Shown piece after piece: positions 19,723 through 58,313 of a DNA stretch of 64,000 nt. The notes below the pieces were generated by a model. The model was not told where the DNA came from. It made no database searches and saw only the letters and a list, made by a program, of their open reading frames with translations. Position 1 is the first letter of the stretch. Each line of letters begins with the position of its first letter. The DNA comes from Candidatus Moraniibacteriota bacterium. GTDB lineage: Bacteria; Patescibacteriota; Minisyncoccia; Moranbacterales; UBA2206. Both the position numbers and the translations under genes were made by a program. The stretch is taken from positions 103,411 to 167,410 of the forward strand of contig JAUSNP010000003.1 of the NCBI GenBank assembly GCA_030645735.1, given 5' to 3'.

Positions 19723-19775
19723 TTGGACACTGGGTGTCTTGAATTCTTAATGCCACTTGGACACCCAGTGTCCAA
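19723..19775. repeat. 16-bp inverted repeat TTGGACACTGGGTGTC / GACACCCAGTGTCCAA (21-nt spacer); each arm is itself a GACACnnnGTGTC palindrome
   Basis: Perfect 16-bp arms at 19723..19738 and 19760..19775. Lies between the VirB4 stop and the next gene's start. A related pair is at 43481..43528. Confidence 0.5.
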
Positions 19776-19788
19776 GTGATAGTTCTGA

Positions 19789-21639
19789 CTATTCTTCATC
19801 CTCGAAATCTTTTTTAGCCTGTTCTATTTCCAATAACTGCGACGGGTCAGTGGTGATGATCTGATCTTCGCTATAGGACGCCACCACTTTGATGGCCACA
19901 TGCTTGGTGCCAGCGAAGAAGATGCCTTCTCCCACATTGCTTTCCAGTAACAAGAATTTTTCCTGATCAGTTAGATAGAATGTGTCAGCAATCACATCAA
20001 TCGCGGCGGGAGATTGTTTTAGAAGAAGCTGAATTGATGAGTTGGTCACAATTGGCTTGCCATAGCGCGAGGATAGAAAATCATTCACATCCTGCGTAAT
20101 GGTGGTAAGTCCAGTATAATATTTTCTGCATCTTTTCGCAATTCCAAAAAGGAAAGATGCGGCGTCGTCTGATTTCATCATCACCCAAGCTTCATCTACC
20201 AAAACCATTCGCTTTTTGACATTGGTGCGCATTTCATTCCAAATAAATTGCAAAACGATATACATAGCAATAGGTCGCAATTCATCTTCCATATCGCGAA
20301 TATTGAAGACCACTAGCTTGTTGTCAGCCTTGATGTTGGTGGTGTTGTTGAGAAATCCAGCAAAAATTCCTTCCGTATATTTTTCTAGGCGAATAGCCAA
20401 GTCCTCACTGCCATCCATGTTGCGCAAAACATTGTAGAGGTCTGACATAGTTGGATAGGATTCTTTGGGCAATTCATTGAAATTGGTTTGGCCGGTGATG
20501 TCGCGAATTGCATAAGTTTCGTGTACGGCTCTGTCCAAAATTGAATCTTCCTCTGGAGTGATATTTCCCAGCATCAAATGCAAAAGTCCAAGCAGTCCGG
20601 CAATGTTGTTGCGCAAAATGTCTTCCGGATCTTCATCTTCGGCAATTTTTGGCAAATCAAAGGGATTCAAATGATTGGTTGAATTCAGGGAAATCTTGAT
20701 GAAAGCTCCGCCAACTGTGTCACACAGATGCTTATATTCATTTTCTGGGTCAATGATGATGACATCGGTGCCAACCATCAAAGAGCGCAAAACTTCCAAT
20801 TTAACAGTATAACTTTTGCCACCTCCGGATTTGGCGAAAACCACCATATTGGCATTTTCCATTTTGAAGCGGTCAAAAAGAACCAAGCTATTATTATGTC
20901 GGTTGATGCCATAAAGAATGCCTTCATCATTGGAAAGGCTGGATGAAACAAAAGGAAATGTTGTAGAAAGCGGGGCAGAATTCATGTTGGTTCCAATATT
21001 CAACTCATCATTGGCCAGTGGAATAGTTGAATTGAAGCCTTGTTCCGTTTTGAAGATAGACGGCTTGATATAAACCAATTGTGCTTCCAGAATTGATTCG
21101 ATAGCGCGCGTAGTCTTGTCCAATTCTTTTTCATCTTGGCCATAGATAGTTATGTATAATCCAAAACGGAAAAACTTTTCTGTGCCTTGTTGCAGTTTGT
21201 CGCGCAACTCATCAATGTCTTGCATAGCGGTTTCCAAGGATGGATCGCGAATCATTCCATTTTCTTGCTCAATGTGGAGCTGGGATTGCACTTGGGTCGC
21301 GCTTTTTCGGAGTGTTTTCAAGATATCCACGGTTTCAATCGGGTGCACGAACATGGAAATGTCGATGGACATATCAATGTTGATGATGGGTGAAAACCAA
21401 TTGCTGTTCAAAAATCTAGGATAAGAGATGACAAAAATTGTGCGCGCCAAAGTCTCGCCCAATTGGATGGACTTGGGCAAAATCTTAATAGCGGCTGGCG
21501 CCAAAAGATCTTGCAATTTGGCCACACCCTCTTGATAGAATTTTTCTGACTCAATCACATCATCAAGAATCACCGCTTTTTTCGGTTGAGTTGAGGGATC
21601 TTTTTTGCTTAGGAAATCAAACATAATTGTCAGAACCAC
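19789..21639 (-). CDS. Type IV secretion ATPase VirB4/TrbE/CagE family
   Basis: Walker A (VVFAKSGGGKSYTVKLE) and Walker B (MVLVDEAWVMM). The C-terminal domain architecture is typical of VirB4. GTG start at 21639, with an alternative ATG at 21624. Confidence 0.8.
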   Translation of the reverse strand: MVLTIMFDFLSKKDPSTQPKKAVILDDVIESEKFYQEGVAKLQDLLAPAAIKILPKSIQLGETLARTIFVISYPRFLNSNWFSPIINIDMSIDISMFVHPIETVDILKTLRKSATQVQSQLHIEQENGMIRDPSLETAMQDIDELRDKLQQGTEKFFRFGLYITIYGQDEKELDKTTRAIESILEAQLVYIKPSIFKTEQGFNSTIPLANDELNIGTNMNSAPLSTTFPFVSSSLSNDEGILYGINRHNNSLVLFDRFKMENANMVVFAKSGGGKSYTVKLEVLRSLMVGTDVIIIDPENEYKHLCDTVGGAFIKISLNSTNHLNPFDLPKIAEDEDPEDILRNNIAGLLGLLHLMLGNITPEEDSILDRAVHETYAIRDITGQTNFNELPKESYPTMSDLYNVLRNMDGSEDLAIRLEKYTEGIFAGFLNNTTNIKADNKLVVFNIRDMEDELRPIAMYIVLQFIWNEMRTNVKKRMVLVDEAWVMMKSDDAASFLFGIAKRCRKYYTGLTTITQDVNDFLSSRYGKPIVTNSSIQLLLKQSPAAIDVIADTFYLTDQEKFLLLESNVGEGIFFAGTKHVAIKVVASYSEDQIITTDPSQLLEIEQAKKDFEDEE

Positions 21640-21745
21640 TGATTATCACATGAAAACACTGATTTCACATGATTGTGGATTATTTTTTATTTTAAATTTT
21701 TTCAGGTGGCGTCATGTGTACTCAGGTGTTAATCAGTGGTTCTGA
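21630..21745. repeat. 116-bp element bracketed by perfect 16-bp inverted repeats TCAGAACCACTGATTA ... TAATCAGTGGTTCTGA
   Basis: Arms at 21630..21645 and 21730..21745. The 84-bp core holds an internal direct repeat (TCACATGA x2). The element exactly fills the gap between the upstream ORF's stop (21747) and the VirB4 start. Confidence 0.5.
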
Positions 21746-21746
21746 T

Positions 21747-22427
21747 TTATTTCAATTCTAGTTCTTCAATATTCCCAATCTTTGTATCATTAAAAATATT
21801 CGGGTTGTAGGAGTTGTACATCAATTCGATCAATTCTTGAGTTTTGAGGGGTGTCATGCGAGCGCCAATGCCAGATAGTGAGGCGGAAATGTGGTCAACT
21901 CTTTGAAAGAGCTGGTTTTTGTAAGTTTCAAAGTCCTCTCTTTTGTGCGTGATGTCCTTTTTAGCACTGCTGAAAAGATTGCCCAAAAAACTGCGGTCTT
22001 GATTTTCAACTGGAGCAAATGGCACAATCACATAAAAACTTTTGTCCATAATGTTGGACACAGAAACTAATTGGCGGATGAAATTTTTGTATTCATAAAT
22101 CTGCAAACGCAAAAGCTCGCTGTCCTGCTCTTTTTCTTTTTTCTCGACATATTCAATATACTTATCAATATTCATTCGGCGCGAGCTGATCAAAATTTGA
22201 ATCGGAAAGTCCAAGGAATTCAAGAAATTTTGATACTGATTGATGATAGCTTCTTGTTCGTCGGATGATTTCAAATCAAAGTTGATGGCTGACACGGCTA
22301 AAACTGCTCGCAAGGCGCCACTTTTTAGCACAATTACATCTTCCTTGATTTCAGCCACATCCAAAAACTGCTGACTGGGATTAGTCGTGGTTTGTTTGGT
22401 TATCTTGGGTGAATTTAGTGTTTCCAT
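21747..22427 (-). CDS. Hypothetical protein (possibly a separately encoded VirB4 N-terminal-like domain or T4SS accessory protein)
   Basis: 226-aa cytoplasmic ORF directly upstream of VirB4. The combined length (226+616 aa) matches full-length VirB4 proteins. Confidence 0.4.
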   Translation of the reverse strand: METLNSPKITKQTTTNPSQQFLDVAEIKEDVIVLKSGALRAVLAVSAINFDLKSSDEQEAIINQYQNFLNSLDFPIQILISSRRMNIDKYIEYVEKKEKEQDSELLRLQIYEYKNFIRQLVSVSNIMDKSFYVIVPFAPVENQDRSFLGNLFSSAKKDITHKREDFETYKNQLFQRVDHISASLSGIGARMTPLKTQELIELMYNSYNPNIFNDTKIGNIEELELK

Positions 22428-22903
22428 TATCTTTTATTTATTTCTAATAATTTGGAAATATCTTCAATTTTCTGTCTGGAAATTTCTTTTTTTGGAACAA
22501 TGGCGGCAGCGGCAGCTTTTTTCTGCGCGGCTGTTTTTGGCTTGGCGGGCCTGGAAAAGGCTTTTATGTCAGCCACTCTTCTCCAGACATACATTTTGGG
22601 TTTGGTGAAAAATGAGACCGCCGACAAAAGAAACAGTATGAATGGTTGGCCGTGTGGCTTGAAAAAAGCCAGCGCACCAAAAATCATAGTCAAGATGACG
22701 GCAACGATAATAAACAAGGACATATCAAGGATGCTCCAAGCCACCAACAAAATCACGCCTTCCGCTCCCAACCAGCCCAATTGCTTGGCGGTCAACGGCC
22801 CGACGATCTTATCCTCTATGTCAATAAATTGTGGGACGTTGAACATGCCCATACTTTTTTTAAAATCACAAATTACAAAATACAAATAACAAACAAATTT
22901 CAA
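22427..22903 (-). CDS. Small two-TM membrane protein, VirB3/PrgI-like
   Basis: 158 aa with two adjacent TM helices following a short cytoplasmic N-terminus. Position upstream of VirB4 matches Gram-positive PrgI/VirB3. Confidence 0.35.
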   Translation of the reverse strand: MKFVCYLYFVICDFKKSMGMFNVPQFIDIEDKIVGPLTAKQLGWLGAEGVILLVAWSILDMSLFIIVAVILTMIFGALAFFKPHGQPFILFLLSAVSFFTKPKMYVWRRVADIKAFSRPAKPKTAAQKKAAAAAIVPKKEISRQKIEDISKLLEINKR

Positions 22904-27265: not shown

Positions 27266-28306
27266 TTATTGAAATAGCATTTGGATTAAATCAGGATTGG
27301 GCGCAGTAGCTCCGTAGGAAGTCAATTTATTCTTAACTGAATCATCGTAGGTAAGCCCATAGGTGTTGAATTTTTCATTCAAGTCATCAGAAAAAGTTGA
27401 AGCATAATCAATGAAACTAGAGGCTTTGGAAAAATTAGCAATGTTGGCAATGGGATCGTTTGGATCTTGCGTCAACAATTCATCTAGGTTTTGTGAATAT
27501 TTAGCAATGCGCAAAGCTTCAATGTGCGTGTCAACCAATTCTGCTGGCACGGGAATGCTTTTCATTTGTTCCACAATTTTTTGTTCAGTGCCAAGCACGC
27601 TTCTGATAGAAGATGTGTTTTGGGTGAGTATGCCCGTGGTGAAATCCTGCGAAAGAGAAGTGGATATATTGGTGAGATCGGTGGCAGAAGTGATGGGCGT
27701 AGGAGAATTGCTAGACATGACATAGGAAACACCAGTGATATAGTCAGCGAAATCTTCTTTTTTGATTTGTGTAATTTGAGCATCACTTAGGCCTGTTGTT
27801 GCAGGTTGTTCTTTGATAGTGATTTCATCTTTACTGACGGCTGGAAACTCATCCGTAGAAACCTTCGTATTCAAAGACTCATCCACAATGGCCTTCACTT
27901 GTTCCATAGTCACTTCCTGATTGTTTGGGTCTGCATCTTGAACTAGTGTTGAGATTCTTTGTGTAACCTCCTCCGTCATGTTTGTAGCATTGGGGTTAGT
28001 GGAAACATTTTCTGTATTGATAGATTTGATCTCTGGGGTGACTCTGTCTCCCGGAGCAGGCTTGAGGGGATTGTAGCCAGATTGAATTTCAGCGCCATCG
28101 GAATAGCCATCGCCATCAGTGTCGGCCACTTGTGGGTTGGTGCCATAAGTTTTTTCCTCCTCATCAGAAAGGCCATCCTGATCGCTGTCTAAAAAGATGT
28201 TTTTGTTGGTGCTAGCTTGTTCTTCAGCCATGGCGAAAAAAGAAAAACTAGCGATTGTTAGCGCAAATAAAACTATAAGAGATAGTTGAACTTTTTTTAT
28301 TTTCAT
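27266..28306 (-). CDS. Secreted protein with thrombospondin-type-3-like Ca-binding repeats
   Basis: Signal peptide, then DSDQDGLSDEEE...DTDGDGYSDGAE repeats matching the DxDxDGxxDxxE pattern. Confidence 0.5.
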   Translation of the reverse strand: MKIKKVQLSLIVLFALTIASFSFFAMAEEQASTNKNIFLDSDQDGLSDEEEKTYGTNPQVADTDGDGYSDGAEIQSGYNPLKPAPGDRVTPEIKSINTENVSTNPNATNMTEEVTQRISTLVQDADPNNQEVTMEQVKAIVDESLNTKVSTDEFPAVSKDEITIKEQPATTGLSDAQITQIKKEDFADYITGVSYVMSSNSPTPITSATDLTNISTSLSQDFTTGILTQNTSSIRSVLGTEQKIVEQMKSIPVPAELVDTHIEALRIAKYSQNLDELLTQDPNDPIANIANFSKASSFIDYASTFSDDLNEKFNTYGLTYDDSVKNKLTSYGATAPNPDLIQMLFQ

Positions 28307-28413
28307 TAATAGAATTATACCACAAAAAAGTAAAACAAATAAACCACTTTGCCTGTGTATAACTCATGACTTAAATGGTTGCGAAAAAGTGTCAAGATTG
28401 ATACTGTATATGT

Positions 28414-37045: not shown

Positions 37046-37067
37046 ATAAAAATTCGTTTTTGACTAT

Positions 37068-37197
37068 CCCGCACTAACTTTGTATCAACGCCAGAGGCGT
37101 TCACGTGAGTTAATGCGGATTATTCAGTCAAATATTGAATGTTATGAATGTATATTCTTTGCGAGTAAGTGTAAATCAAATACAAAGTTAGTGCGGG
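37068..37197. repeat. 130-bp element bracketed by perfect 17-bp inverted repeats CCCGCACTAACTTTGTA / TACAAAGTTAGTGCGGG
   Basis: Arms at 37068..37084 and 37181..37197, abutting the pnp stop codon (37200). The core contains hairpin ACGCCagaGGCGT. Confidence 0.45.
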
Positions 37198-37199
37198 AA

Positions 37200-39317
37200 C
37201 TACTCCGTTTTTTTCGCCGCCGCTTTCATAGAAAGATTGATGCGTCCTTGGGCGTCAATTTCTTTCACTTTGACTGGCACGATGTCTCCAACTGAGACAA
37301 TGTCTTCAACTTTTTCCACGCGTGCTTCAGCTAGTTCGGAAATGTGAATCAAACCTTCTTGTCCAGGAAGAATTTCAGCAAAAGCTCCAAAGGTCATAAT
37401 TTTTGTGACCTTAGCTTGGAACAATTCACCAGCTTTTACTTCATGAGTCAGGTTGTCAATCCATTCTTGCGCTTTTTTGGCAGCTATTGCATCTGGAGAA
37501 GTGATGAAAATTGATCCATCATCTTCAATATCAATTTGCACGCCTGTTTCATCGATGATGGCATTGATAATTTTGCCACCTGATCCAATCACGTTTCTGA
37601 TCTTGTCAGGGTTGATATGCATAATGATGATTCTTGGAGCATATTGGCTCATTTCGGCGCGAGGTGTAGGAATGGCAGTGGTGATTTTCTCCATAATTTC
37701 CATTCTGTTGCCTTTGGATTGAATCAAAACAGCTTTGAGCATTTCCAAAGTCACACCTTGCACTTTCACGTCCATTTGCAAAGCTGTGATTCCAACAGTG
37801 GTTCCAGCGGCTTTGAAATCCATGTCGCCATAATGATCTTCCAATCCTTGGATATCAGTCAAAACTTTGAATTTGCTGTCATTGGCTTGGTCAACAATGA
37901 TTCCCATAGCAATTCCTGATACGGGGCGTGTGATTGGCACACCAGCATCCATCAAAGACAAGGTTGAACCACAAGTTGATGCCATAGAAGATGAACCATT
38001 GGATTCAAGCACTTCTGACACCAACAAAATAGTATATGGAAACACTTCTTTAGCTGGTAAAACTGGAATCAAGGCTTTTTCTGCCAAAGCGCCGTGTCCG
38101 ATTTCTCTTCGCCCAGGACCACGCATTGGTCGCACTTCCCCCACTGAATATGGTGGGAAATTGTAATGATGGATATAGCGTTTCTTCATATCAACTTCCA
38201 TGGTGTCAATGATTTGTTCGTCTCCAGGTGAACCCAAAGTGGTCACAGTCAAAGCTTGAGTCTCGCCACGGGTGAAAAGTCCGGTGCCGTGAGTTCTTGG
38301 CAAGATGCCAACTTGGCAATCAATGTGACGGATTTGGTCCAATTTTCGGCCGTCTGGGCGTTGTTCTTTTTCCAAAATGTTTTTGTGTACGATTTCATCA
38401 GAAACCTCTTCAAAAACTTGTTGCCCGATTTCTTTTAGTTTATCAATGCCTTCGGTGAAGTTGGCGGTGATATATTCACCAACTTTTTCGTTGATAGTCT
38501 TGGTTTTTTCTTCAATCACAACCTTGCTTGGGTCATACAACGCTGACTCCAAGCCTTCAGCCAACAAAATTTCTTTGACTTTCGCTTCAAATTCAGGAGT
38601 TCCTTGCAAAAGAGTTGGTATGGCCTTTTCTTTGCCAATTTCTGCTACAATTTCTTCAATGAAAGTGGCAATCTTGGTGATGGCTTCTTGTCCAAAAGCA
38701 AAAGCCTCAACGATCGTCTCTTCTGGTACTTCTTTGGCACCAGCTTCTAACATATTGATCTTGTCTTTGGTTCCAGAAATCACTAGATCCAATTTGCTAT
38801 CAGCCAACTCACCATTGACTGGGTTCAAAATGAATTCTCCATTCTCAGCTTGGGCCACACGCACTGCTGCTACTGGTCCATTCCAAGGAATGTTTGAGAT
38901 AGCCAAGGCGGCTGAAGCGGCAATCACAGAAATTGTATCTGGATCATTCTCGCCATCAATCGACAAAACAGTCACAATCACTTGGACTTCATTGCGCATT
39001 CTGGCATTGAAAAGTGGGCGGATTGTTCGATCCACTACGCGACCAGTCAAAACTGCGTCGTCAGATGGACGACCTTCTCTCTTGATGAATCTTGAACCTT
39101 TGATTTTGCCGGCTGCATAATATCTTTCCTCAAAATCAACCATCAATGGGAAATAACCACTGATACGGGACGCTCCCTTGCTCATGGTGGCAGCTGCCAA
39201 CACCACTGTGTCGCCATAACGCACAGTTACAGATCCATTGGCTTGTTTCGCCAACAGACCGGTTTCGATCTCCAACACTCGGCCTCCAATTTGGAGTGAC
39301 CATTTTTTTTGTGCCAT
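37200..39317 (-). CDS. pnp: Polyribonucleotide nucleotidyltransferase (PNPase)
   Basis: Two RNase PH domains plus KH and S1 domains. The likely true start is MAQKKWSLQIGG at 39317; the track start at 39398 adds 27 unlikely residues. Confidence 0.9.
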   Translation of the reverse strand: MAQKKWSLQIGGRVLEIETGLLAKQANGSVTVRYGDTVVLAAATMSKGASRISGYFPLMVDFEERYYAAGKIKGSRFIKREGRPSDDAVLTGRVVDRTIRPLFNARMRNEVQVIVTVLSIDGENDPDTISVIAASAALAISNIPWNGPVAAVRVAQAENGEFILNPVNGELADSKLDLVISGTKDKINMLEAGAKEVPEETIVEAFAFGQEAITKIATFIEEIVAEIGKEKAIPTLLQGTPEFEAKVKEILLAEGLESALYDPSKVVIEEKTKTINEKVGEYITANFTEGIDKLKEIGQQVFEEVSDEIVHKNILEKEQRPDGRKLDQIRHIDCQVGILPRTHGTGLFTRGETQALTVTTLGSPGDEQIIDTMEVDMKKRYIHHYNFPPYSVGEVRPMRGPGRREIGHGALAEKALIPVLPAKEVFPYTILLVSEVLESNGSSSMASTCGSTLSLMDAGVPITRPVSGIAMGIIVDQANDSKFKVLTDIQGLEDHYGDMDFKAAGTTVGITALQMDVKVQGVTLEMLKAVLIQSKGNRMEIMEKITTAIPTPRAEMSQYAPRIIIMHINPDKIRNVIGSGGKIINAIIDETGVQIDIEDDGSIFITSPDAIAAKKAQEWIDNLTHEVKAGELFQAKVTKIMTFGAFAEILPGQEGLIHISELAEARVEKVEDIVSVGDIVPVKVKEIDAQGRINLSMKAAAKKTE

Positions 39318-39350
39318 AAACACTTTGCGCCTTGTACTAATGGCAAAAAG

Positions 39351-39381
39351 AAGTCTAAAGTCTAAAGCTGAAAGTCTAAAG
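39351..39381. repeat. AAGTCTAAAG repeats in pnp 5' leader
   Basis: gaagtctaaagtctaaagctgaaagtctaaag, followed by tcaaaac repeats and tttatggacttt x2. Lies 35-130 nt upstream of the pnp start. Confidence 0.4.
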
Positions 39382-39605
39382 TCAAAACTACAAGTCAAAA
39401 CTTAATGTTTAAGTTCTAAATTGTGGTTTTGCGCTTTATGGACTTTACGAACTTTATGGACTTTCGACTAAGTTTGCGCATTAAACAAGGCAAATATTAA
39501 ATTATTAAGTGCTTAAAGTGTAGCTTTTTTGCGCTGTTTTGTCAATCCAAGTAAAACAAAAACCCGCCGGAACGGGTTTTTGAGTAGTATCTTTATTTTG
39601 ATAAA

Positions 39606-41127: not shown

Positions 41128-41249
41128 CTGTCATTGCGAGCGAAATGAAATGTAGCGAAGCAATCTCGTAGTATTACATCTATCCCACAGTATTCAGGGA
41201 TTGCCACGGTCAATATCGATTGTCATCGATATTTCCCTCGCAATGACAG
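41128..41249. mobile_element. MITE-like 122-bp element with CTGTCATTGCGAG(C/G)GAAAT terminal inverted repeats
   Basis: 19/20-bp terminal inverted repeats with the same CTGTCAT/ATGACAG ends as the 40535 element. Contains an internal ATATCGAT-tgtc-ATCGATAT palindrome. Lies between divergent rpsO and pcrA. Confidence 0.4.
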
Positions 41250-45115: not shown

Positions 45116-46108
45116 GTGGTAACAATATGTTTCATGTTTCATGTTTCATGTTCTATGTCTCTAAGAAGTCTAAAGGATCAATTCCTGGAATATTTAGAAA
45201 TCGAACGAGGTCGTTCCAGAAAGACCATTGAGAATTATAACCATTATTTGGATCGGTTTTTCGATTGGGCGCATATCAGTGAGCCTAGCCAGATCAATGA
45301 TGACTTGATGCGAGGTTTCCGGGTCTATCTAAATCGATTTGAGGATACCAATGGTCATCCACTTAAAAAAAATACGCAAAACTATTACATCATCTCTATC
45401 AGGAGCTTTTTGAAATATTTGGCTAAGCGGGATATCGAGACATTGAAGGCTGAAAAGGTGGAGGTCGGAAAAAGCTCGAAGCGAGAAGTTGAGTTTTTGG
45501 AAGCTGAAGAGGTGGAACGGATTTTGGCAGCGGCAGGTGGAGCAGATTTCAAATCTTTGCGAGACAAAGCTATTTTGGAATTGTTGTTTTCAGCCGGCCT
45601 TCGTGTTTCTGAGCTGATCAACATCAATCGCGATCGTTTGGATTTGAAAAGCCGTGAATTCAGTGTGCGTGGCAAGGGCGACAAAGTTCGCGTGGTCTTT
45701 GTGTCAGATGGCGCGGCCAAAGCTTTGCAAAGATATTTGGAAAAAAGAATTGACATTGATCCAGCGTTGTTTGTGCAAGATGAAAAATCACAAGCCAAGT
45801 TTCAAGGCAAAAAAACCAAAGTGGTCAGCAAAAAGGGCAAAGCCAGTGGTGACTTGCGACTCACTCCTCGAACCATTCAACGCATCGTGAAGCATTATGC
45901 CGCCAAAGCTGGCATCATCAAAGATGTTCATCCCCACACCCTGCGCCATTCCTTTGCTACTGACCTTTTGATGAATGGGGCTGACATTCGCAGTGTTCAA
46001 GAGATGCTCGGCCACTCCTCCATCACAACCACGCAAGTTTATACTCATGTTACCAACAAACAACTCAAAGAAGTCCATCAAGCCTTTCACGCGAGGAGAA
46101 GAAAATAA
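45116..46108 (+). CDS. xerC: Tyrosine site-specific recombinase XerC/XerD family
   Basis: LRHSFATDLLMNGADIRSVQEMLGHSSITTTQVYTHV with the catalytic Tyr. N-terminal core-binding domain LKDQFLEYLEIERGRSRKTIENY. The true start may be the Met at 45155. Confidence 0.8.
   Translation: MVTICFMFHVSCSMSLRSLKDQFLEYLEIERGRSRKTIENYNHYLDRFFDWAHISEPSQINDDLMRGFRVYLNRFEDTNGHPLKKNTQNYYIISIRSFLKYLAKRDIETLKAEKVEVGKSSKREVEFLEAEEVERILAAAGGADFKSLRDKAILELLFSAGLRVSELININRDRLDLKSREFSVRGKGDKVRVVFVSDGAAKALQRYLEKRIDIDPALFVQDEKSQAKFQGKKTKVVSKKGKASGDLRLTPRTIQRIVKHYAAKAGIIKDVHPHTLRHSFATDLLMNGADIRSVQEMLGHSSITTTQVYTHVTNKQLKEVHQAFHARRRK
45126..45153. repeat. Tandem 7-mer (ATGTTTC)x3 plus a degenerate copy at the 5' end of the recombinase ORF
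   Basis: atgtttcatgtttcatgtttcatgttct. Confidence 0.5.
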
Positions 46109-52713: not shown

Positions 52714-53004
52714 ATGAGTATTGCTGATAAAATAGAACAAATTCGCCAGAAGCCAGAACATATTCGCTTGCGATATGTTTGGTTTTTTGTTTTTGTGAGT
52801 ATGTTTTTAGTTCTGACTGTATGGTATTTTTCTACAAAGACGCAGATGATGCAATTTAATGGCGCTGCTAATGACGCGATTATAACAGAGGATTTGGGTT
52901 CAGCAATTAGCGAGTTTAGCCAACAAGGCGAATCAATTAAAGACGCTGTGAGCAAAACAAAGAGTTCTTTGATGAATGACCAAGTCAACAATAGTCAAAA
53001 ATAA
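52714..53004 (+). CDS. Small single-TM hypothetical protein
   Basis: 96-aa ORF with one hydrophobic helix (VWFFVFVSMFLVLTVWYF). Confidence 0.4.
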   Translation: MSIADKIEQIRQKPEHIRLRYVWFFVFVSMFLVLTVWYFSTKTQMMQFNGAANDAIITEDLGSAISEFSQQGESIKDAVSKTKSSLMNDQVNNSQK

Positions 53005-53025
53005 TTTTTTTTATAGACTCTGCTA

Positions 53026-53057
53026 GTAATTTCATAATCAATTGATTATGAAATTAC
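53026..53057. promoter_or_regulatory. 32-bp perfect palindrome GTAATTTCATAATCAA|TTGATTATGAAATTAC upstream of gyrA
   Basis: Exact dyad symmetry centred on CAATTG, about 100 nt upstream of the gyrA start. Confidence 0.5.
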
Positions 53058-53159
53058 AATCAGGTTCTAAATACAAATTTAATAAATAAATTTCAGCTTT
53101 GTTTTTAACTCCCCGTCTTTAGCGGTGGAGTTGATTACGGAGAAGATTCAATAATCACA

Positions 53160-56636: not shown

Positions 56637-58313
56637 TCAAATAGAAATCAGAAATGCTAGAGCCATCCATAATATCATCTGTCCTTGCTGAATGTCCCAG
56701 AGGTAATGATCAAAAAGCATGATAAATGTGAGACCAAGGAATAGTCCTTGAAATAGCCTAATTACAATCGACGGAAATGTTCCACGTGGAACATTTTTGA
56801 TCGGCTCATATGTTTCACAATGAGAATTGTTCCACGTGGAACATTTTATGCTCGATTCTGGCGCAACTCTCTTTTTTTCAAATTGTTCCACGTGGAACAA
56901 TTTCCACAACATCCAGATAAATAATATCAGTCCAACCAATCCCAACTCACTCCAGATTAGCAAAAAGACATTGTGCACTGGCTGAAATTGCCAGTCAGAA
57001 AGTGCTTGGTTTGTGTTATTGCGCATATTGGCCACGAATTGGCCTGATCCAATGCCAAATATTGGGTTCTGCGAAATTGTTCCACGTGAAACATTTAGGT
57101 ATAGTATACGTTCATCGAGTGACTTGAAAAAAAGTGAGTTGATGTCAGGCTGGATAATAACTATCAACGCGACGAATATTCCTAGCAGGATGATTAATTT
57201 ACGACCAATATGTTCCACGTGGAACAATTTTGTTGCGTAAGTCTTGACACTTGTCCAGTATGCATAGCCAATAGCTATAATTAGGCCTAGAATAGCTGAT
57301 TTTGAGAATGTTAGGATTATAGCAACTATTTGGATTGCTAAAATTATTGAATATGCTCGATCATGGATTGCTTTGGGTATGATGCTTGAAATTGTTCCAC
57401 CCGCCTCGACTCGTGGAGACGACCACTCGTCGACGCGAGGCGGGCGCGGAACATTTTCGGTGGGTTTGTATGTTTCACAGTGAGAATTGTTCCACCCGCC
57501 TCGACTCGCAGAGACTGCTTGTCGATGCGAGGCGGGCGTGGAACATTTTATGTCTAACTTGGAAGTTTTATTTTGTTCCACCCGTCTCGACTCGTGGAGA
57601 CGACCACTCGTCGACGCGAGGCGGGCGTGGAACATTTTTCGGTATACCAATGTTAGTATAATTGAGAATAACAAGAAACCACCTAGAATGTTGGGATGTG
57701 GAAATAAGCCATAAGCGCGGATTATTTTCTCTTGGTTGAAGATGAGTTTGGCTACGCCAGCTATTTCTGGTGAAATTAGGCTTTCTTTTAGCCAAAAAAG
57801 TCCAATTGAATGTTGGACAAGGATTTGCCAAGTGCCAACAATGACCTGGATTAGACTAATTGAGATAAGTATTCTAAAAGTATTACGTAAAATTGTTCCA
57901 CGTGGAACAATTTTGATTATTAAATATAAGAACAAGATATAATATTCAAGTAATTTGATAGATCTGAATAAAGTAATGTTCTGGTTGTCTGACCAAGATA
58001 TTGAGATAAATGACCAAACCACGAGTAGTAAAGGTAGTAAAAATGTTCCACGTGGAACATTAGCAGTTCTTATTATTGACAAAAGAGACTGTTTATTGCA
58101 TAATATCGAAATAAGCCAGCTAATCGCGATTGCGAGCAAAAAGAGGTCACTGATGTATAGATAGATGCCCGTATATTCGTTAAATTGTTCATTGATGGGA
58201 TAAAAAAATAAAACCTTACGCACAGAGAGGGTGAAGGTGGTTAAAAAGCCATAAAAAAACCAAACATCAGGTTGTGTTTTGAAATCATTCCAAATTTTTC
58301 GTAGCAGATTCAT
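56637..58313 (-). CDS. O-antigen ligase (Wzy_C)-like membrane protein interrupted in-frame by multiple palindromic-element insertions
   Basis: 558-aa continuous ORF. The C-terminal half has a Wzy_C-like loop (NPIFGIGSGQFVANMRNN...HNVFLLIWSELGLVGLILFIW). The palindromes are translated in three frames as VPRGT, CSTWN and FHVE(Q/H). Confidence 0.6.
   Translation of the reverse strand: MNLLRKIWNDFKTQPDVWFFYGFLTTFTLSVRKVLFFYPINEQFNEYTGIYLYISDLFLLAIAISWLISILCNKQSLLSIIRTANVPRGTFLLPLLLVVWSFISISWSDNQNITLFRSIKLLEYYILFLYLIIKIVPRGTILRNTFRILISISLIQVIVGTWQILVQHSIGLFWLKESLISPEIAGVAKLIFNQEKIIRAYGLFPHPNILGGFLLFSIILTLVYRKMFHARLASTSGRLHESRRVEQNKTSKLDIKCSTPASHRQAVSASRGGWNNSHCETYKPTENVPRPPRVDEWSSPRVEAGGTISSIIPKAIHDRAYSIILAIQIVAIILTFSKSAILGLIIAIGYAYWTSVKTYATKLFHVEHIGRKLIILLGIFVALIVIIQPDINSLFFKSLDERILYLNVSRGTISQNPIFGIGSGQFVANMRNNTNQALSDWQFQPVHNVFLLIWSELGLVGLILFIWMLWKLFHVEQFEKKRVAPESSIKCSTWNNSHCETYEPIKNVPRGTFPSIVIRLFQGLFLGLTFIMLFDHYLWDIQQGQMILWMALAFLISI
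56778..58059. repeat. Cluster of 10 copies of the 16-bp perfect palindrome TGTTCCACGTGGAACA (7 simple, 3 split by a 45-nt GC-rich palindromic insert)
   Basis: Simple copies at 56778, 56828, 56884, 57078 (variant TGTTCCACGTGAAACA), 57211, 57904 and 58044. Expanded copies TGTTCCAC-CCGCCTCGACTCGTGGAGACGACCACTCGTCGACGCGAGGCGGGC-GTGGAACA at 57393..57453, 57488..57545 and 57574..57634. A composite unit (palindrome-TTTT..TATGTTTCACAATGAGAA-palindrome) is duplicated at 56778..56843 and 57449..57545. Confidence 0.8.

What the first reader, a model, noticed from the sequence alone, without database searches (positions are those of the whole stretch)
21630..21745. 116-bp element bracketed by perfect 16-bp inverted repeats, positioned exactly at the VirB4 start codon
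TCAGAACCACTGATTA at 21630..21645 and its exact reverse complement at 21730..21745 flank an 84-bp AT-rich core containing an internal TCACATGA direct repeat.

The left arm overlaps the first codons of VirB4 (GTG start at 21639). The right arm ends 1 nt before the stop of the upstream ORF.

This geometry is what an invertible promoter switch looks like (fimS-like). Alternatively it is a MITE that inserted between, and possibly split, VirB4 coding segments. A tyrosine recombinase gene (45116..46108) exists in the window.
Basis: partly seen in the sequence, partly recalled or inferred. Interest (0 to 1): 0.6.

Follow-up and report, generated by a model that had tools for sequence, protein, structure and literature searches.

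The report
Dispersed palindromic repeat inside T4SS operon
The 116-bp inverted-repeat element is one copy of a roughly 90-120-bp hairpin-forming repeat family scattered between genes of Moranbacteria (candidate phyla radiation) genomes. It was recently inserted into the few bases between the stop codon of trsD and the start codon of virB4, it is not an invertible promoter switch, and it did not split the gene.

Summary
The inverted repeat is real and far beyond chance: perfect 16-nt arms at 21630-21645 and 21730-21745, extending to a hairpin of about 43 bp. The genes are on the minus strand and virB4 starts at ATG 21624, 5 nt outside the repeat, not at GTG 21639.

The "split VirB4" is the known, conserved Patescibacteria arrangement prgI/virB3 - trsD - virB4. 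All 120 listed homologues are about 600-646 aa, and trsD lies directly upstream in 77 of 79 relatives' loci.

The element is a recent arrival. The junction is TAATG in a 90%-identical relative and a 16-nt spacer in a 94%-identical one. It is also not unique. At least 37 copies with the same ends and the same CAC(N)TGATT sub-repeats occur in other Moranbacteria/Parcubacteria genomes and in metagenome contigs, in unrelated gene contexts.

These copies almost always sit between a stop codon (0-8 nt upstream) and an ATG (3-9 nt downstream), in one polarity relative to the genes. I found no promoter or terminator consensus on the gene strand, no nearby invertase, no covariation, no strand-specific G-U bias, no Rfam match and no parent IS.

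Verdict: a new family of a known kind (MITE/ERIC/Correia-like intercistronic palindromic repeat), probably co-transcribed as an mRNA hairpin. Its effect on virB4 expression is inferred, not shown.

The parts
21630..21745 (-). The 116-bp palindromic element. In gene orientation it reads TCAGAACCACTGATTA...TAATCAGTGGTTCTGA and is one copy of a dispersed family.
   Evidence: structure. (family; the nhmmer profile built from 28 copies hits only this site in the window, E = 6e-18).
21730..21745 (-). The 5' terminal arm in gene orientation (TCAGAACCACTGATTA). It begins 1 nt after the trsD stop codon.
21630..21645 (-). The 3' terminal arm in gene orientation (TAATCAGTGGTTCTGA). It ends 5 nt (CAATT) before the virB4 ATG.
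21646..21729 (-). Sub-terminal stem built of 8-11-nt sub-repeats (CAC(N)TGATT-type, including TCACATGA twice) plus an A/T-rich loop of about 29 nt.
21747..22427 (-). trsD, a 226-aa protein homologous to the N-terminal part of VirB4. It is a separate conserved gene in Patescibacteria.
   Evidence: NCBIfam TrsD NF041427, and positions 3-119 of CD1110-type VirB4. PF26593 TraC-like on the orthologue. PMC12102498.
19789..21624 (-). virB4 ATPase, 611 aa. The true start is ATG 21624.
   Evidence: positions 181-734 of 752 of CD1110-type VirB4.
22427..22903 (-). prgI/virB3-like gene, whose end overlaps the trsD start.
   Evidence: (PF12666).
28304..28322 (-). Candidate operon promoter. The extended -10-like box TGGTATAAT ends 7 nt before the ATG of the first minus-strand gene (27266..28306) in the series of same-strand ORFs that continues to trsD-virB4.
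   Evidence: gene spacing. Consensus match only, not tested.

Best explanation
The element is a copy of a previously uncatalogued family of small non-coding palindromic repeats, mostly 87-128 nt (three longer copies reach 159-169 nt). They are carried by Moranbacteria/Parcubacteria (CPR) genomes.

Family consensus, in the direction of the flanking genes:
[stop codon, usually TAA] 0-8 nt | TCAGAACCACTGATTA - 2-3 further CAC(N)TGATT-type sub-repeats - A/T loop - the inverted sub-repeats - TAATCAGTGGTTCAGA | CA(A/T)TT | ATG.

In the window's lineage a copy inserted recently into the very short spacer between trsD and virB4, two genes that were already separate. It lies inside a long run of same-strand, closely spaced genes, so the whole element is most likely transcribed as part of the polycistronic mRNA.

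There it would form a hairpin of about 43 bp (about -41 to -45 kcal/mol) whose base lies 1 nt after the trsD stop and 5 nt before the virB4 AUG.

Shown: family membership, recent insertion, polarity, placement, and the absence of promoter, terminator and invertase signatures.

Inferred by analogy with ERIC, Correia and REP elements and with classical translational coupling:
- The hairpin occludes the virB4 initiation region.
- virB4 translation would then depend on ribosomes finishing trsD, which melt the stem.
- The hairpin may also act as a processing or stability determinant of the mRNA.

How the family moves is unknown. No target-site duplication and no autonomous partner were found.
For: 1. 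Other copies exist.
- The 16-mer scan of metagenome contigs plus 80 virB4 loci gave at least 37 distinct full copies with the same termini and sub-repeat layout.
- They occur in unrelated contexts, for example between enolase and gpmI in L158 and upstream of gyrB in L085 and L186.
- They also occupy other junctions of the T4SS operon in L003, L004, L013, L014 and L042.

2. The insertion is recent. The same junction is TAATG in L001 (90% aa identity), a 16-nt spacer in L201 (94%) and a different AT-rich filler in L202 (95%). The native TrsD C-terminus and VirB4 N-terminus are unchanged.

3. The split predates the element.
- All 120 listed homologues are 594-646 aa and cover only 69-73% of the concatenated query.
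- trsD is found directly upstream in 77 of 79 relatives' loci; the other two loci lack the upstream sequence.
- TrsD and VirB4 together tile full-length VirB4 models.
- PMC12102498 describes TrsD next to VirB4 across Patescibacteria.

4. Placement and polarity.
- In 21 of 29 copies that carry the terminal asymmetry TCAGAACC...GGTTCAGA, that polarity matches the direction of the flanking genes.
- In most of these the downstream ATG lies 3-9 nt away (mode 5; 36 nt in L140). In about three quarters of them the upstream ORF's stop lies 0-8 nt away.
- One or two copies are opposite and the rest are ambiguous. Binomial p = 7e-5 for 21 versus 2.

5. No promoter on the gene strand and no terminator in 21400-22000. 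No Rfam family: the best hit is 27.9 bits against a 120-bit cutoff, generic hairpin noise.

6. Operon context. The same-strand ORFs from 28306 down to 15342 are separated by gaps of 31 nt or less, or overlap, except three gaps of 71-122 nt. Two of those three hold hairpins.
Against: - Only one copy occurs in the 64-kb window, so multi-copy status in this particular genome is not shown.
- No target-site duplication could be recognised, and no longer element with the same ends was seen in the fetched loci (about 1.5 Mb). Mobility is therefore inferred only from presence/absence and dispersal.
- The terminal 24 nt are more conserved (81-96% at the unascertained 3' end) than the flanking coding DNA (68-76%) at orthologous junctions. 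The polarity is also strict. Both fit a host-selected function better than a purely selfish MITE.
- Ascertainment used an exact 16-mer of one arm, which inflates the apparent conservation of that arm.
- Co-transcription and any effect on translation are not tested.
Confidence: 0.8

Rival explanations
1. Host-maintained intercistronic module. The family is not merely selfish DNA but a conserved cis-element. It would be either an array of binding sites for a conserved protein or an RNA hairpin that couples or meters translation and mRNA stability across operon junctions. Purifying selection would keep it at orthologous junctions.
For: - Copies sit at the same junction in different species: eno|gpmI in L158, L175 and L191; upstream of gyrB in L085 and L186; prgI|trsD in L013, L042 and L004. 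The terminal 24 nt are 81-96% identical at the unascertained 3' end, while the flanking CDS is 68-76% identical.
- Polarity and stop/start adjacency are strict.
- Both arms hold conserved sequence motifs at a period of about 10 nt, with 0 compensatory pairs out of 21. This looks like sequence-specific recognition.
- The genome has no Shine-Dalgarno signal, so structure near the AUG should matter.
Against: - Presence is patchy even among close relatives at the trsD|virB4 junction.
- The downstream genes have no common function.
- About 40% of every junction in this operon carries some unrelated insert of 60 nt or more across species, as expected for opportunistic colonisation of permissive sites.
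- Conservation of the ends could equally reflect a transposase requirement or recent spread.
- There is no G-U strand bias (55 versus 58) and no energy difference between strands, so RNA-level selection is not demonstrated.
Confidence: 0.2
2. Outward-reading promoter carrier, as in Correia elements. The 3' arm would supply a -10-like box (TGTGATAAT, with GATAAT ending 17 nt before the virB4 ATG) and give the downstream gene its own transcript.
For: - GATAAT with an upstream TG is visible in the 3' arm of the window copy. GATAAT occurs in about 17 of the 28 aligned copies.
- This genome seems to use short or absent leaders, for example TGGTATAAT ending 7 nt before an ATG at 28304-28322.
Against: - The consensus scan found no promoter on the gene strand, and there is no -35 element.
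- By symmetry the same box faces outward at the other end, into the antisense of trsD.
- About 30% of copies have GCTAAT instead.
- Nothing was tested experimentally.
Confidence: 0.08
3. Invertible promoter switch (fimS-like) controlling virB4.
For: Perfect 16-bp inverted repeats flank a segment just upstream of a gene start. A tyrosine recombinase gene exists in the window.
Against: - No internal promoter on the gene strand.
- The recombinase is Xer-like and lies 23 kb away among uvrD, ftsH and gyrA.
- The arms pair nearly up to a loop of about 29 nt.
- It is a dispersed family with one fixed polarity, and the loop orientation is the same in the window and L158 copies.
Confidence: 0.02
4. The element split an intact virB4 into two ORFs, as a gene-disrupting or gene-splitting insertion.
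For: The 226-aa and 611-aa products tile a full-length VirB4, and the element lies exactly between them.
Against: - The two-gene arrangement is present in all 77 relatives' loci that include the upstream region.
- Most of them lack this element, and five have a TAATG stop/start overlap.
- All 120 listed homologues are about 600-646 aa.
- TrsD is a recognised separate protein family (PMC12102498).
Confidence: 0.01
5. Integron attC-like recombination site: an imperfect palindrome between ORFs with AAC...GTT near its ends.
For: - Size of 87-128 nt for most copies, conserved ends with a variable centre, and fixed polarity between co-directional ORFs.
- ...GAAC at the 5' end and GTTC... at the 3' end.
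- Single genes are bracketed by two copies in L013, L042 and L122.
Against: - The ends do not fit RYYYAAC/GTTRRRY.
- There is no integron integrase; TIGR02249 scores 132 bits against a 265-bit cutoff.
- The flanking genes are conserved housekeeping or T4SS genes in conserved order, with or without the element.
Confidence: 0.02

Closest known systems
Correia elements (CREE/NEMIS) of Neisseria
   Same: Non-coding elements of about 100-155 bp with long terminal inverted repeats. They are dispersed and often lie just upstream of or between genes. They are co-transcribed and fold into long mRNA hairpins. (From general knowledge.)
   Different: Correia elements have a TA target duplication, an IHF site, demonstrated promoters and RNase III cleavage. 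None of these is shown here. No target-site duplication was detected, and I recognise no resemblance to the Correia terminal repeat (from memory, not aligned). The host is a CPR bacterium.
ERIC/IRU and YPAL elements of enterobacteria
   Same: Imperfect palindromes of about 70-127 bp in transcribed intergenic regions of operons. Their effects on the stability of flanking mRNA depend on orientation. (From general knowledge.)
   Different: No sequence relation was looked for beyond Rfam, plasmid and phage searches, which found none. The family here shows a much stricter stop/start adjacency and polarity, and its arms are built of tandem sub-repeats of about 10 nt.
REP/REPIN elements mobilised by RAYT transposases
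   Same: Extragenic, hairpin-forming inverted doublets that are dispersed, sometimes at high density. Their conserved sequence is maintained by a trans-acting protein.
   Different: No GTAG-type 5' tetranucleotide. The arms are not short GC-rich REP palindromes. No RAYT gene was identified (not searched genome-wide).
fimS-type invertible promoter switches
   Same: Inverted repeats bracket a segment just upstream of a gene.
   Different: No internal promoter, no dedicated recombinase, multi-copy, fixed polarity.
Integron attC sites
   Same: Imperfect palindromes of similar size between co-directional ORFs, with conserved ends, a variable centre and fixed polarity.
   Different: The core sites do not match, there is no IntI, and there is no cassette behaviour.

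Membership tests
MITE (miniature inverted-repeat transposable element) | Small (under about 500 bp), non-coding, with terminal inverted repeats | tested here: met
   116 bp with 16-nt perfect and 30-nt imperfect TIRs. Only a mechanical 46-aa antisense ORF is present.
MITE (miniature inverted-repeat transposable element) | Multiple dispersed copies in different genomic contexts | tested here: met
   At least 37 distinct copies in other genomes and contigs, up to 3 within 7.8 kb (L042). Only 1 copy in this 64-kb window.
MITE (miniature inverted-repeat transposable element) | Presence/absence polymorphism at orthologous sites | tested here: met
   Filled in the window, empty in L001 and L201, and holding a different filler in L202.
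MITE (miniature inverted-repeat transposable element) | Target-site duplication flanking the element | tested here: inconclusive
   No direct repeat flanks the window copy or the other copies. The flanks are A-rich on the 5' side and CA(A/T)TT on the 3' side. CAATT is also present at the empty site in L201.
MITE (miniature inverted-repeat transposable element) | A related autonomous IS with the same ends | tested here: not met
   No convincing arm pair 0.3-6 kb apart in the fetched loci (about 1.5 Mb). None in viral contigs, plasmids or phages. This sampling was not genome-wide.
Invertible promoter switch (fimS-like) | Promoter inside the invertible segment | tested here: not met
   No site on the gene strand. 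One chance-level site on the other strand.
Invertible promoter switch (fimS-like) | Dedicated site-specific recombinase nearby | tested here: not met
   The only recombinase is Xer-like and lies 23 kb away.
Invertible promoter switch (fimS-like) | Both orientations present in a population | not testable with these tools
   No reads are available. Indirectly, the family polarity is fixed and the loop orientation is the same in the window and L158 copies.
REP/REPIN | Inverted doublet of short REP palindromes with a conserved 5' GT(A/G)G, plus a RAYT gene in the genome | tested here: not met
   The consensus lacks a GTAG-type head and REP-type palindromes. Presence of a RAYT gene was not searched genome-wide.
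Integron attC | R''/R' core sites RYYYAAC/GTTRRRY, an IntI integrase, and mobile cassettes | tested here: not met
   The ends are TCAGAAC/GTTCAGA. The IntI model scores below its cutoff. Gene order is conserved.
Structured RNA family (Rfam) | Match to a curated covariance model, or covariation supporting an RNA structure | tested here: not met
   Best Rfam hit is 27.9 bits against a 120-bit cutoff. 0 of 21 pairs are compensatory. G-U counts are 55 sense versus 58 antisense.
TrsD + VirB4 (Patescibacteria / MPF-FATA type IV secretion) | Separate TrsD gene (VirB4 N-terminal homologue) immediately upstream of a shortened VirB4 ATPase, preceded by PrgI/VirB3 | tested here: met
   PMC12102498.

The most novel reading that the evidence does not exclude
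The family is a domesticated intercistronic device rather than junk. It would be a sequence-conserved hairpin that holds the upstream stop codon and the downstream AUG at the base of one stem. In these Shine-Dalgarno-less genomes, translation of the downstream cistron would then occur only by hand-over from the terminating ribosome (obligatory coupling or shunt-like reinitiation). Alternatively the element is the docking site of a conserved protein that meters operon expression. Between trsD and virB4 it would tie production of the two halves of an ancestrally single ATPase together.
Probability: 0.15. Interest if true: 0.7.

Novelty: new member of a known kind. Interest (0 to 1): 0.38.

Why it matters
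For this locus the result is mainly corrective. There is no phase-variable switch on the Patescibacteria type IV secretion system, and the two-piece VirB4 is the normal TrsD-VirB4 arrangement. That system is reported as essential for the epibiotic lifestyle in the one species tested (PMC12102498).

More broadly, gene junctions in Moranbacteria operons are heavily colonised by hairpin-forming repeats of about 100 nt from several unrelated families. About 40% of each junction examined carries an insert of 60 nt or more across species.

The family found here has unusually strict polarity and stop/start adjacency, and its ends are better conserved than the neighbouring coding DNA. I found no description of such elements for CPR bacteria in Rfam or in the searched literature.

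They are relevant to gene calling, since false long ORF starts such as GTG 21639 arise from them. They are also relevant to assembly, and possibly to how these minimal genomes tune operon expression.

Tried and rejected
- Rfam, E-value mode, on 21400-22000: only sub-threshold generic hairpin (miRNA precursor) hits.
- Sigma-70 promoter and intrinsic terminator scan: nothing on the gene strand.
- RNA-level selection tests. Sense versus antisense MFE over 37 copies differs by -0.28 +/- 0.74 kcal/mol, and G-U pairs number 55 versus 58. RNAalifold on 28 copies gives 0 compensatory pairs. There is therefore no evidence that the structure is selected on one RNA strand.
- Hypothesis that the trsD|virB4 junction is a special hotspot: rejected. 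The neighbouring junctions (g378|prgI, prgI|trsD, virB4|g195) carry inserts of 60 nt or more just as often, at 41-45%.
- Search for an autonomous parent (arms 0.3-6 kb apart): only noise.
- Exact 15-mer scan of viral contigs followed by a profile search: no true copy.
- blastn against plasmids and phages: no match.
- attC/integron idea: rejected on core-site pattern, integrase score and conserved gene order.
- PDB sequence search with TrsD: no significant hit.
- The local Pfam copy lacks the TraC-like model and found nothing for TrsD. NCBIfam resolved it.
- Literature searches for palindromic, MITE or hairpin repeats in Moranbacteria, Patescibacteria or CPR found nothing relevant.
Full report
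**1. The observation**

The window carries TCAGAACCACTGATTA at 21630-21645 and its exact reverse complement at 21730-21745. Pairing continues inward: the arms are 30 nt at 87% complementarity, and the folded hairpin is about 43 bp with an A/T loop of about 29 nt.

As RNA, a 156-nt stretch folds at -45.3 kcal/mol (z = -7.7) on the gene strand and -47.6 (z = -6.3) on the other. None of 200 shuffles folded as well. A perfect 16-nt inverted repeat within 200 nt is expected 0.005 times per 64 kb in a first-order Markov simulation.

The TCACATGA direct repeat is real. It later proved to be part of the family's sub-repeat pattern.

**2. Gene geometry**

All relevant genes are on the minus strand. Reading 5' to 3' on that strand, the order is:
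- a PrgI/VirB3-like gene at 22903..22427 (PF12666);
- a 226-aa ORF at 22427..21747 ending in TAA;
- one A;
- the element;
- CAATT;
- ATG 21624, opening a 611-aa VirB4 ATPase.

Three lines of evidence place the start at ATG 21624:
- The NCBI protein for this gene is 611 aa and 100% identical (P0001).
- Relatives start MFDFL.
- In L001 the start overlaps the upstream stop as TAATG.

The repeat therefore does not overlap VirB4 codons.

**3. The "split VirB4" is ancestral and already described**

- NCBIfam places the 226-aa protein on the TrsD model and on the N-terminal 3-119 of CD1110-type VirB4 and 18-170 of TIGR00929. It places the 611-aa protein on positions 181-734 of 752 of the CD1110 model.
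- The orthologue in L201 carries PF26593 (TraC-like).
- All 120 listed homologues of the concatenated query are 594-646 aa and cover only 69-73% of it.
- trsD lies directly upstream of virB4 in the 77 of 79 relatives' loci that include that region.
- PMC12102498 reports TrsD as a remote homologue of the VirB4 N-terminus. It is the most abundant T4SS component in Patescibacteria, with 1,664 homologues associated with VirB4.

The element did not split the gene.

**4. The insertion is recent**

The trsD|virB4 junction differs among close relatives:
- TAATG in L001 (90% aa identity);
- TAA-TTTTCAATTATCAATT-ATG in L201 (94%);
- a different AT-rich filler in L202 (95%).

The TrsD C-terminus (...ELELK*) and the VirB4 N-terminus (MFDFL...) are the same with and without the element.

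**5. The element belongs to a dispersed family**

An exact 16-mer scan of metagenome contigs returned mostly chance single hits. About 40 of the fetched loci nevertheless carry a matching second arm 87-169 nt away with the same internal layout. Further copies lie in the virB4 loci of named Moranbacteria/Parcubacteria genomes: L003, L004, L013 (2 copies), L014 and L042 (3 copies).

Contexts are unrelated. Examples are enolase|gpmI in L158, L175 and L191, upstream of gyrB in L085 and L186, and four different junctions of the T4SS operon.

The consensus from 28 copies is:
TCAGAACCACTGATTAnCACnTGATTAnCCTGATTnCACnTGAAT - loop - TCAGTGnAATCAGTGnAATCAnGTGATAATCAGTGGTTCAGA.

Each arm is thus three or four CAC(N)TGATT-type units at a period of about 10 nt.

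A profile built from these copies finds only this one copy in the 64-kb window. It finds none in viral contigs, and blastn finds none in plasmids or phages. Rfam has no such family, and literature searches found no description for CPR bacteria.

**6. Placement and polarity**

Most copies are asymmetric at position 3, reading TCAGAACC at one end and GGTTCAGA at the other. That gives them a defined polarity.
- In 21 of 29 such copies the polarity matches the direction of the flanking genes.
- In most of these an ATG opening a long ORF lies 3-9 nt after the 3' end (mode 5; 36 nt in L140). In about three quarters of them the upstream ORF's stop, usually TAA, lies 0-8 nt before the 5' end.
- One or two copies (L108, perhaps L094) are opposite. 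The rest are ambiguous because of contig ends, divergent genes or poor ORFs.
- The binomial p for 21 versus 2 is 7e-5.

The 3' flank starts with CA in 21 of 37 copies, whereas C at position -5 occurs in only 4 of 43 gene starts in the window. However, CAATT is also present at the empty L201 site. I therefore cannot say whether CA(A/T)TT is part of the element or a preferred target.

No target-site duplication is visible.

**7. What the element is not**

- *Not a promoter or terminator by consensus.* There is no sigma-70-type promoter or intrinsic terminator on the gene strand.
- *Not linked to an invertase.* The tyrosine recombinase at 45116-46108 is XerC/XerD-like (252 and 250 bits). It scores 132 bits against a 265-bit cutoff on the integron-integrase model, and it sits among uvrD, ftsH, gyrA and pnp, 23 kb away.
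- *No sign of inversion.* The window and L158 copies have similar loops in the same orientation relative to the downstream gene.
- *No evidence of a structure selected on one RNA strand.* There are 0 compensatory pairs out of 21. G-U pairs number 55 (sense) versus 58 (antisense). The energy difference between strands is -0.28 +/- 0.74 kcal/mol.

The conserved paired positions are conserved sequence motifs. This fits recognition of the sequence by a protein (a transposase or a host factor) at least as well as it fits an RNA structure.

**8. Baseline for the junction**

In 79 relatives' loci the trsD|virB4 gap is bimodal: 47 loci have -1 to 50 nt and 32 have 61-275 nt. Most long gaps are strong hairpins of unrelated sequence. 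Examples are L017 (z = -11), L023 (z = -10.5) and L042 (z = -9.5).

The neighbouring junctions are occupied just as often. The proportions with inserts of 60 nt or more are 43% for g378|prgI, 43% for prgI|trsD, 41% for trsD|virB4 and 45% for virB4|g195.

This junction is therefore not a special hotspot. Operon junctions in these genomes are generally colonised by several hairpin-repeat families.

**9. How it most likely works**

*Shown:*
- It is a recently inserted member of a dispersed, polar, non-coding palindromic family.
- It lies inside a run of same-strand ORFs from 28306 down to 15342. Their gaps are 31 nt or less, or overlaps, except three of 71-122 nt, two of which hold hairpins.
- A -10-like box, TGGTATAAT, ends 7 nt before the first ATG of that run.

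*Inferred:*
- The element is co-transcribed and forms a hairpin of about -41 to -45 kcal/mol. Its base is 1 nt from the trsD stop and 5 nt from the virB4 AUG.
- This genome shows no Shine-Dalgarno signal.
- Such a stem should block independent initiation at virB4. Translation of virB4 would then depend on ribosomes terminating at trsD, which melt the stem (classical translational coupling).
- By analogy with REP, ERIC and Correia elements, the hairpin may also act as a processing or stability element.
- None of these inferences was testable here.

**10. Conservation that hints at more**

At orthologous junctions the terminal 24 nt of the 3' arm, which was not used for ascertainment, are 81-96% identical. 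The flanking coding DNA is 68-76% identical.

Together with the strict polarity, this leaves room for a host-selected function (rival 1 and the novel case). An outward-facing -10-like box, TGTGATAAT, 17 nt upstream of the ATG is a further untested possibility.

**11. Verdict**

- The invertible-switch reading is not supported.
- The MITE reading is supported, except that the element did not split virB4.
- The element is a new family of a known kind of element. It has some unusual regularities worth a genome-wide census.

Noticed in passing
Loci L002-L080, the trsD|virB4 junction (e.g. L017 2842-3001, L023 2908-3001, L042 2838-3016, L013 2909-3001): In about 40% of related genomes this junction, and each neighbouring operon junction, holds a 60-275-nt insert. 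Most are strong hairpins from unrelated families: TACGAAT-repeat palindromes, a GTCATCCTGAGCGAAG... type, and AT-rich AAATTT-type elements. Like the family studied here, several have arms built of short tandem sub-repeats.
   Followed up: partly
window 56778-58059 (inside minus-strand ORF 56637..58313): The perfect palindrome TGTTCCACGTGGAACA occurs 7 times (0.03 expected) inside a Wzy_C/O-antigen-ligase-like ORF. It is read in three frames (NVPRGTF, LFHVEHI/LFHVEQF, KCSTWNNSHCETY), and the protein also has an odd hydrophilic insert. This looks like in-frame palindromic element insertions, as with Rickettsia palindromic elements.
   Followed up: partly
window 37067-37198: A second element of similar geometry. 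It has perfect 19-nt inverted repeats (TCCCGCACTAACTTTGTAT) 94 nt apart and begins 1 nt after the TAG stop of the PNPase gene (37200..39398). Its sequence is unrelated to the family studied.
   Followed up: no
window 41128-41249: A 122-bp element with 19-nt inverted repeats (CTGTCATTGCGAGCGAAAT) upstream of uvrD/pcrA. It is the same GTCATTGCGAG... type seen in the junction inserts of L009, L037, L042 and L076.
   Followed up: no
window 19723-19775: A perfect 16-nt inverted repeat (TTGGACACTGGGTGTC) with a 21-nt loop, in the 74-nt gap right after the virB4 stop. It has no T-run, so it is not a canonical terminator.
   Followed up: no
L004 2089-2209; also the junction inserts of L030 and L037: The L004 family copy carries a nested mini-palindrome (CCTGCCTACCGGCAGGCAGG) inside its 5' arm. 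Nearly the same mini-palindrome occurs in the trsD|virB4 inserts of L030 and L037, so elements insert into elements.
   Followed up: no
L042 1503-1661 and 4820-4936: In these two copies the 5' end reads TCTGAACC, and the upstream ORF (virB4 itself in the second case) runs into the element and stops at its TGA. The element therefore supplies the stop codon.
   Followed up: no
window-wide; 28304-28322 (minus strand): Gene starts in this genome lack a Shine-Dalgarno motif and have A/T-rich upstream regions. The first gene of the T4SS-containing gene run has TGGTATAAT ending 7 nt before its ATG, which suggests a leaderless or near-leaderless mRNA.
   Followed up: partly
window 53002-53081: An 80-bp AT-rich near-palindrome (41-nt overlapping arms, 80% complementary) about 80 nt upstream of gyrA (53160).
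   Followed up: no
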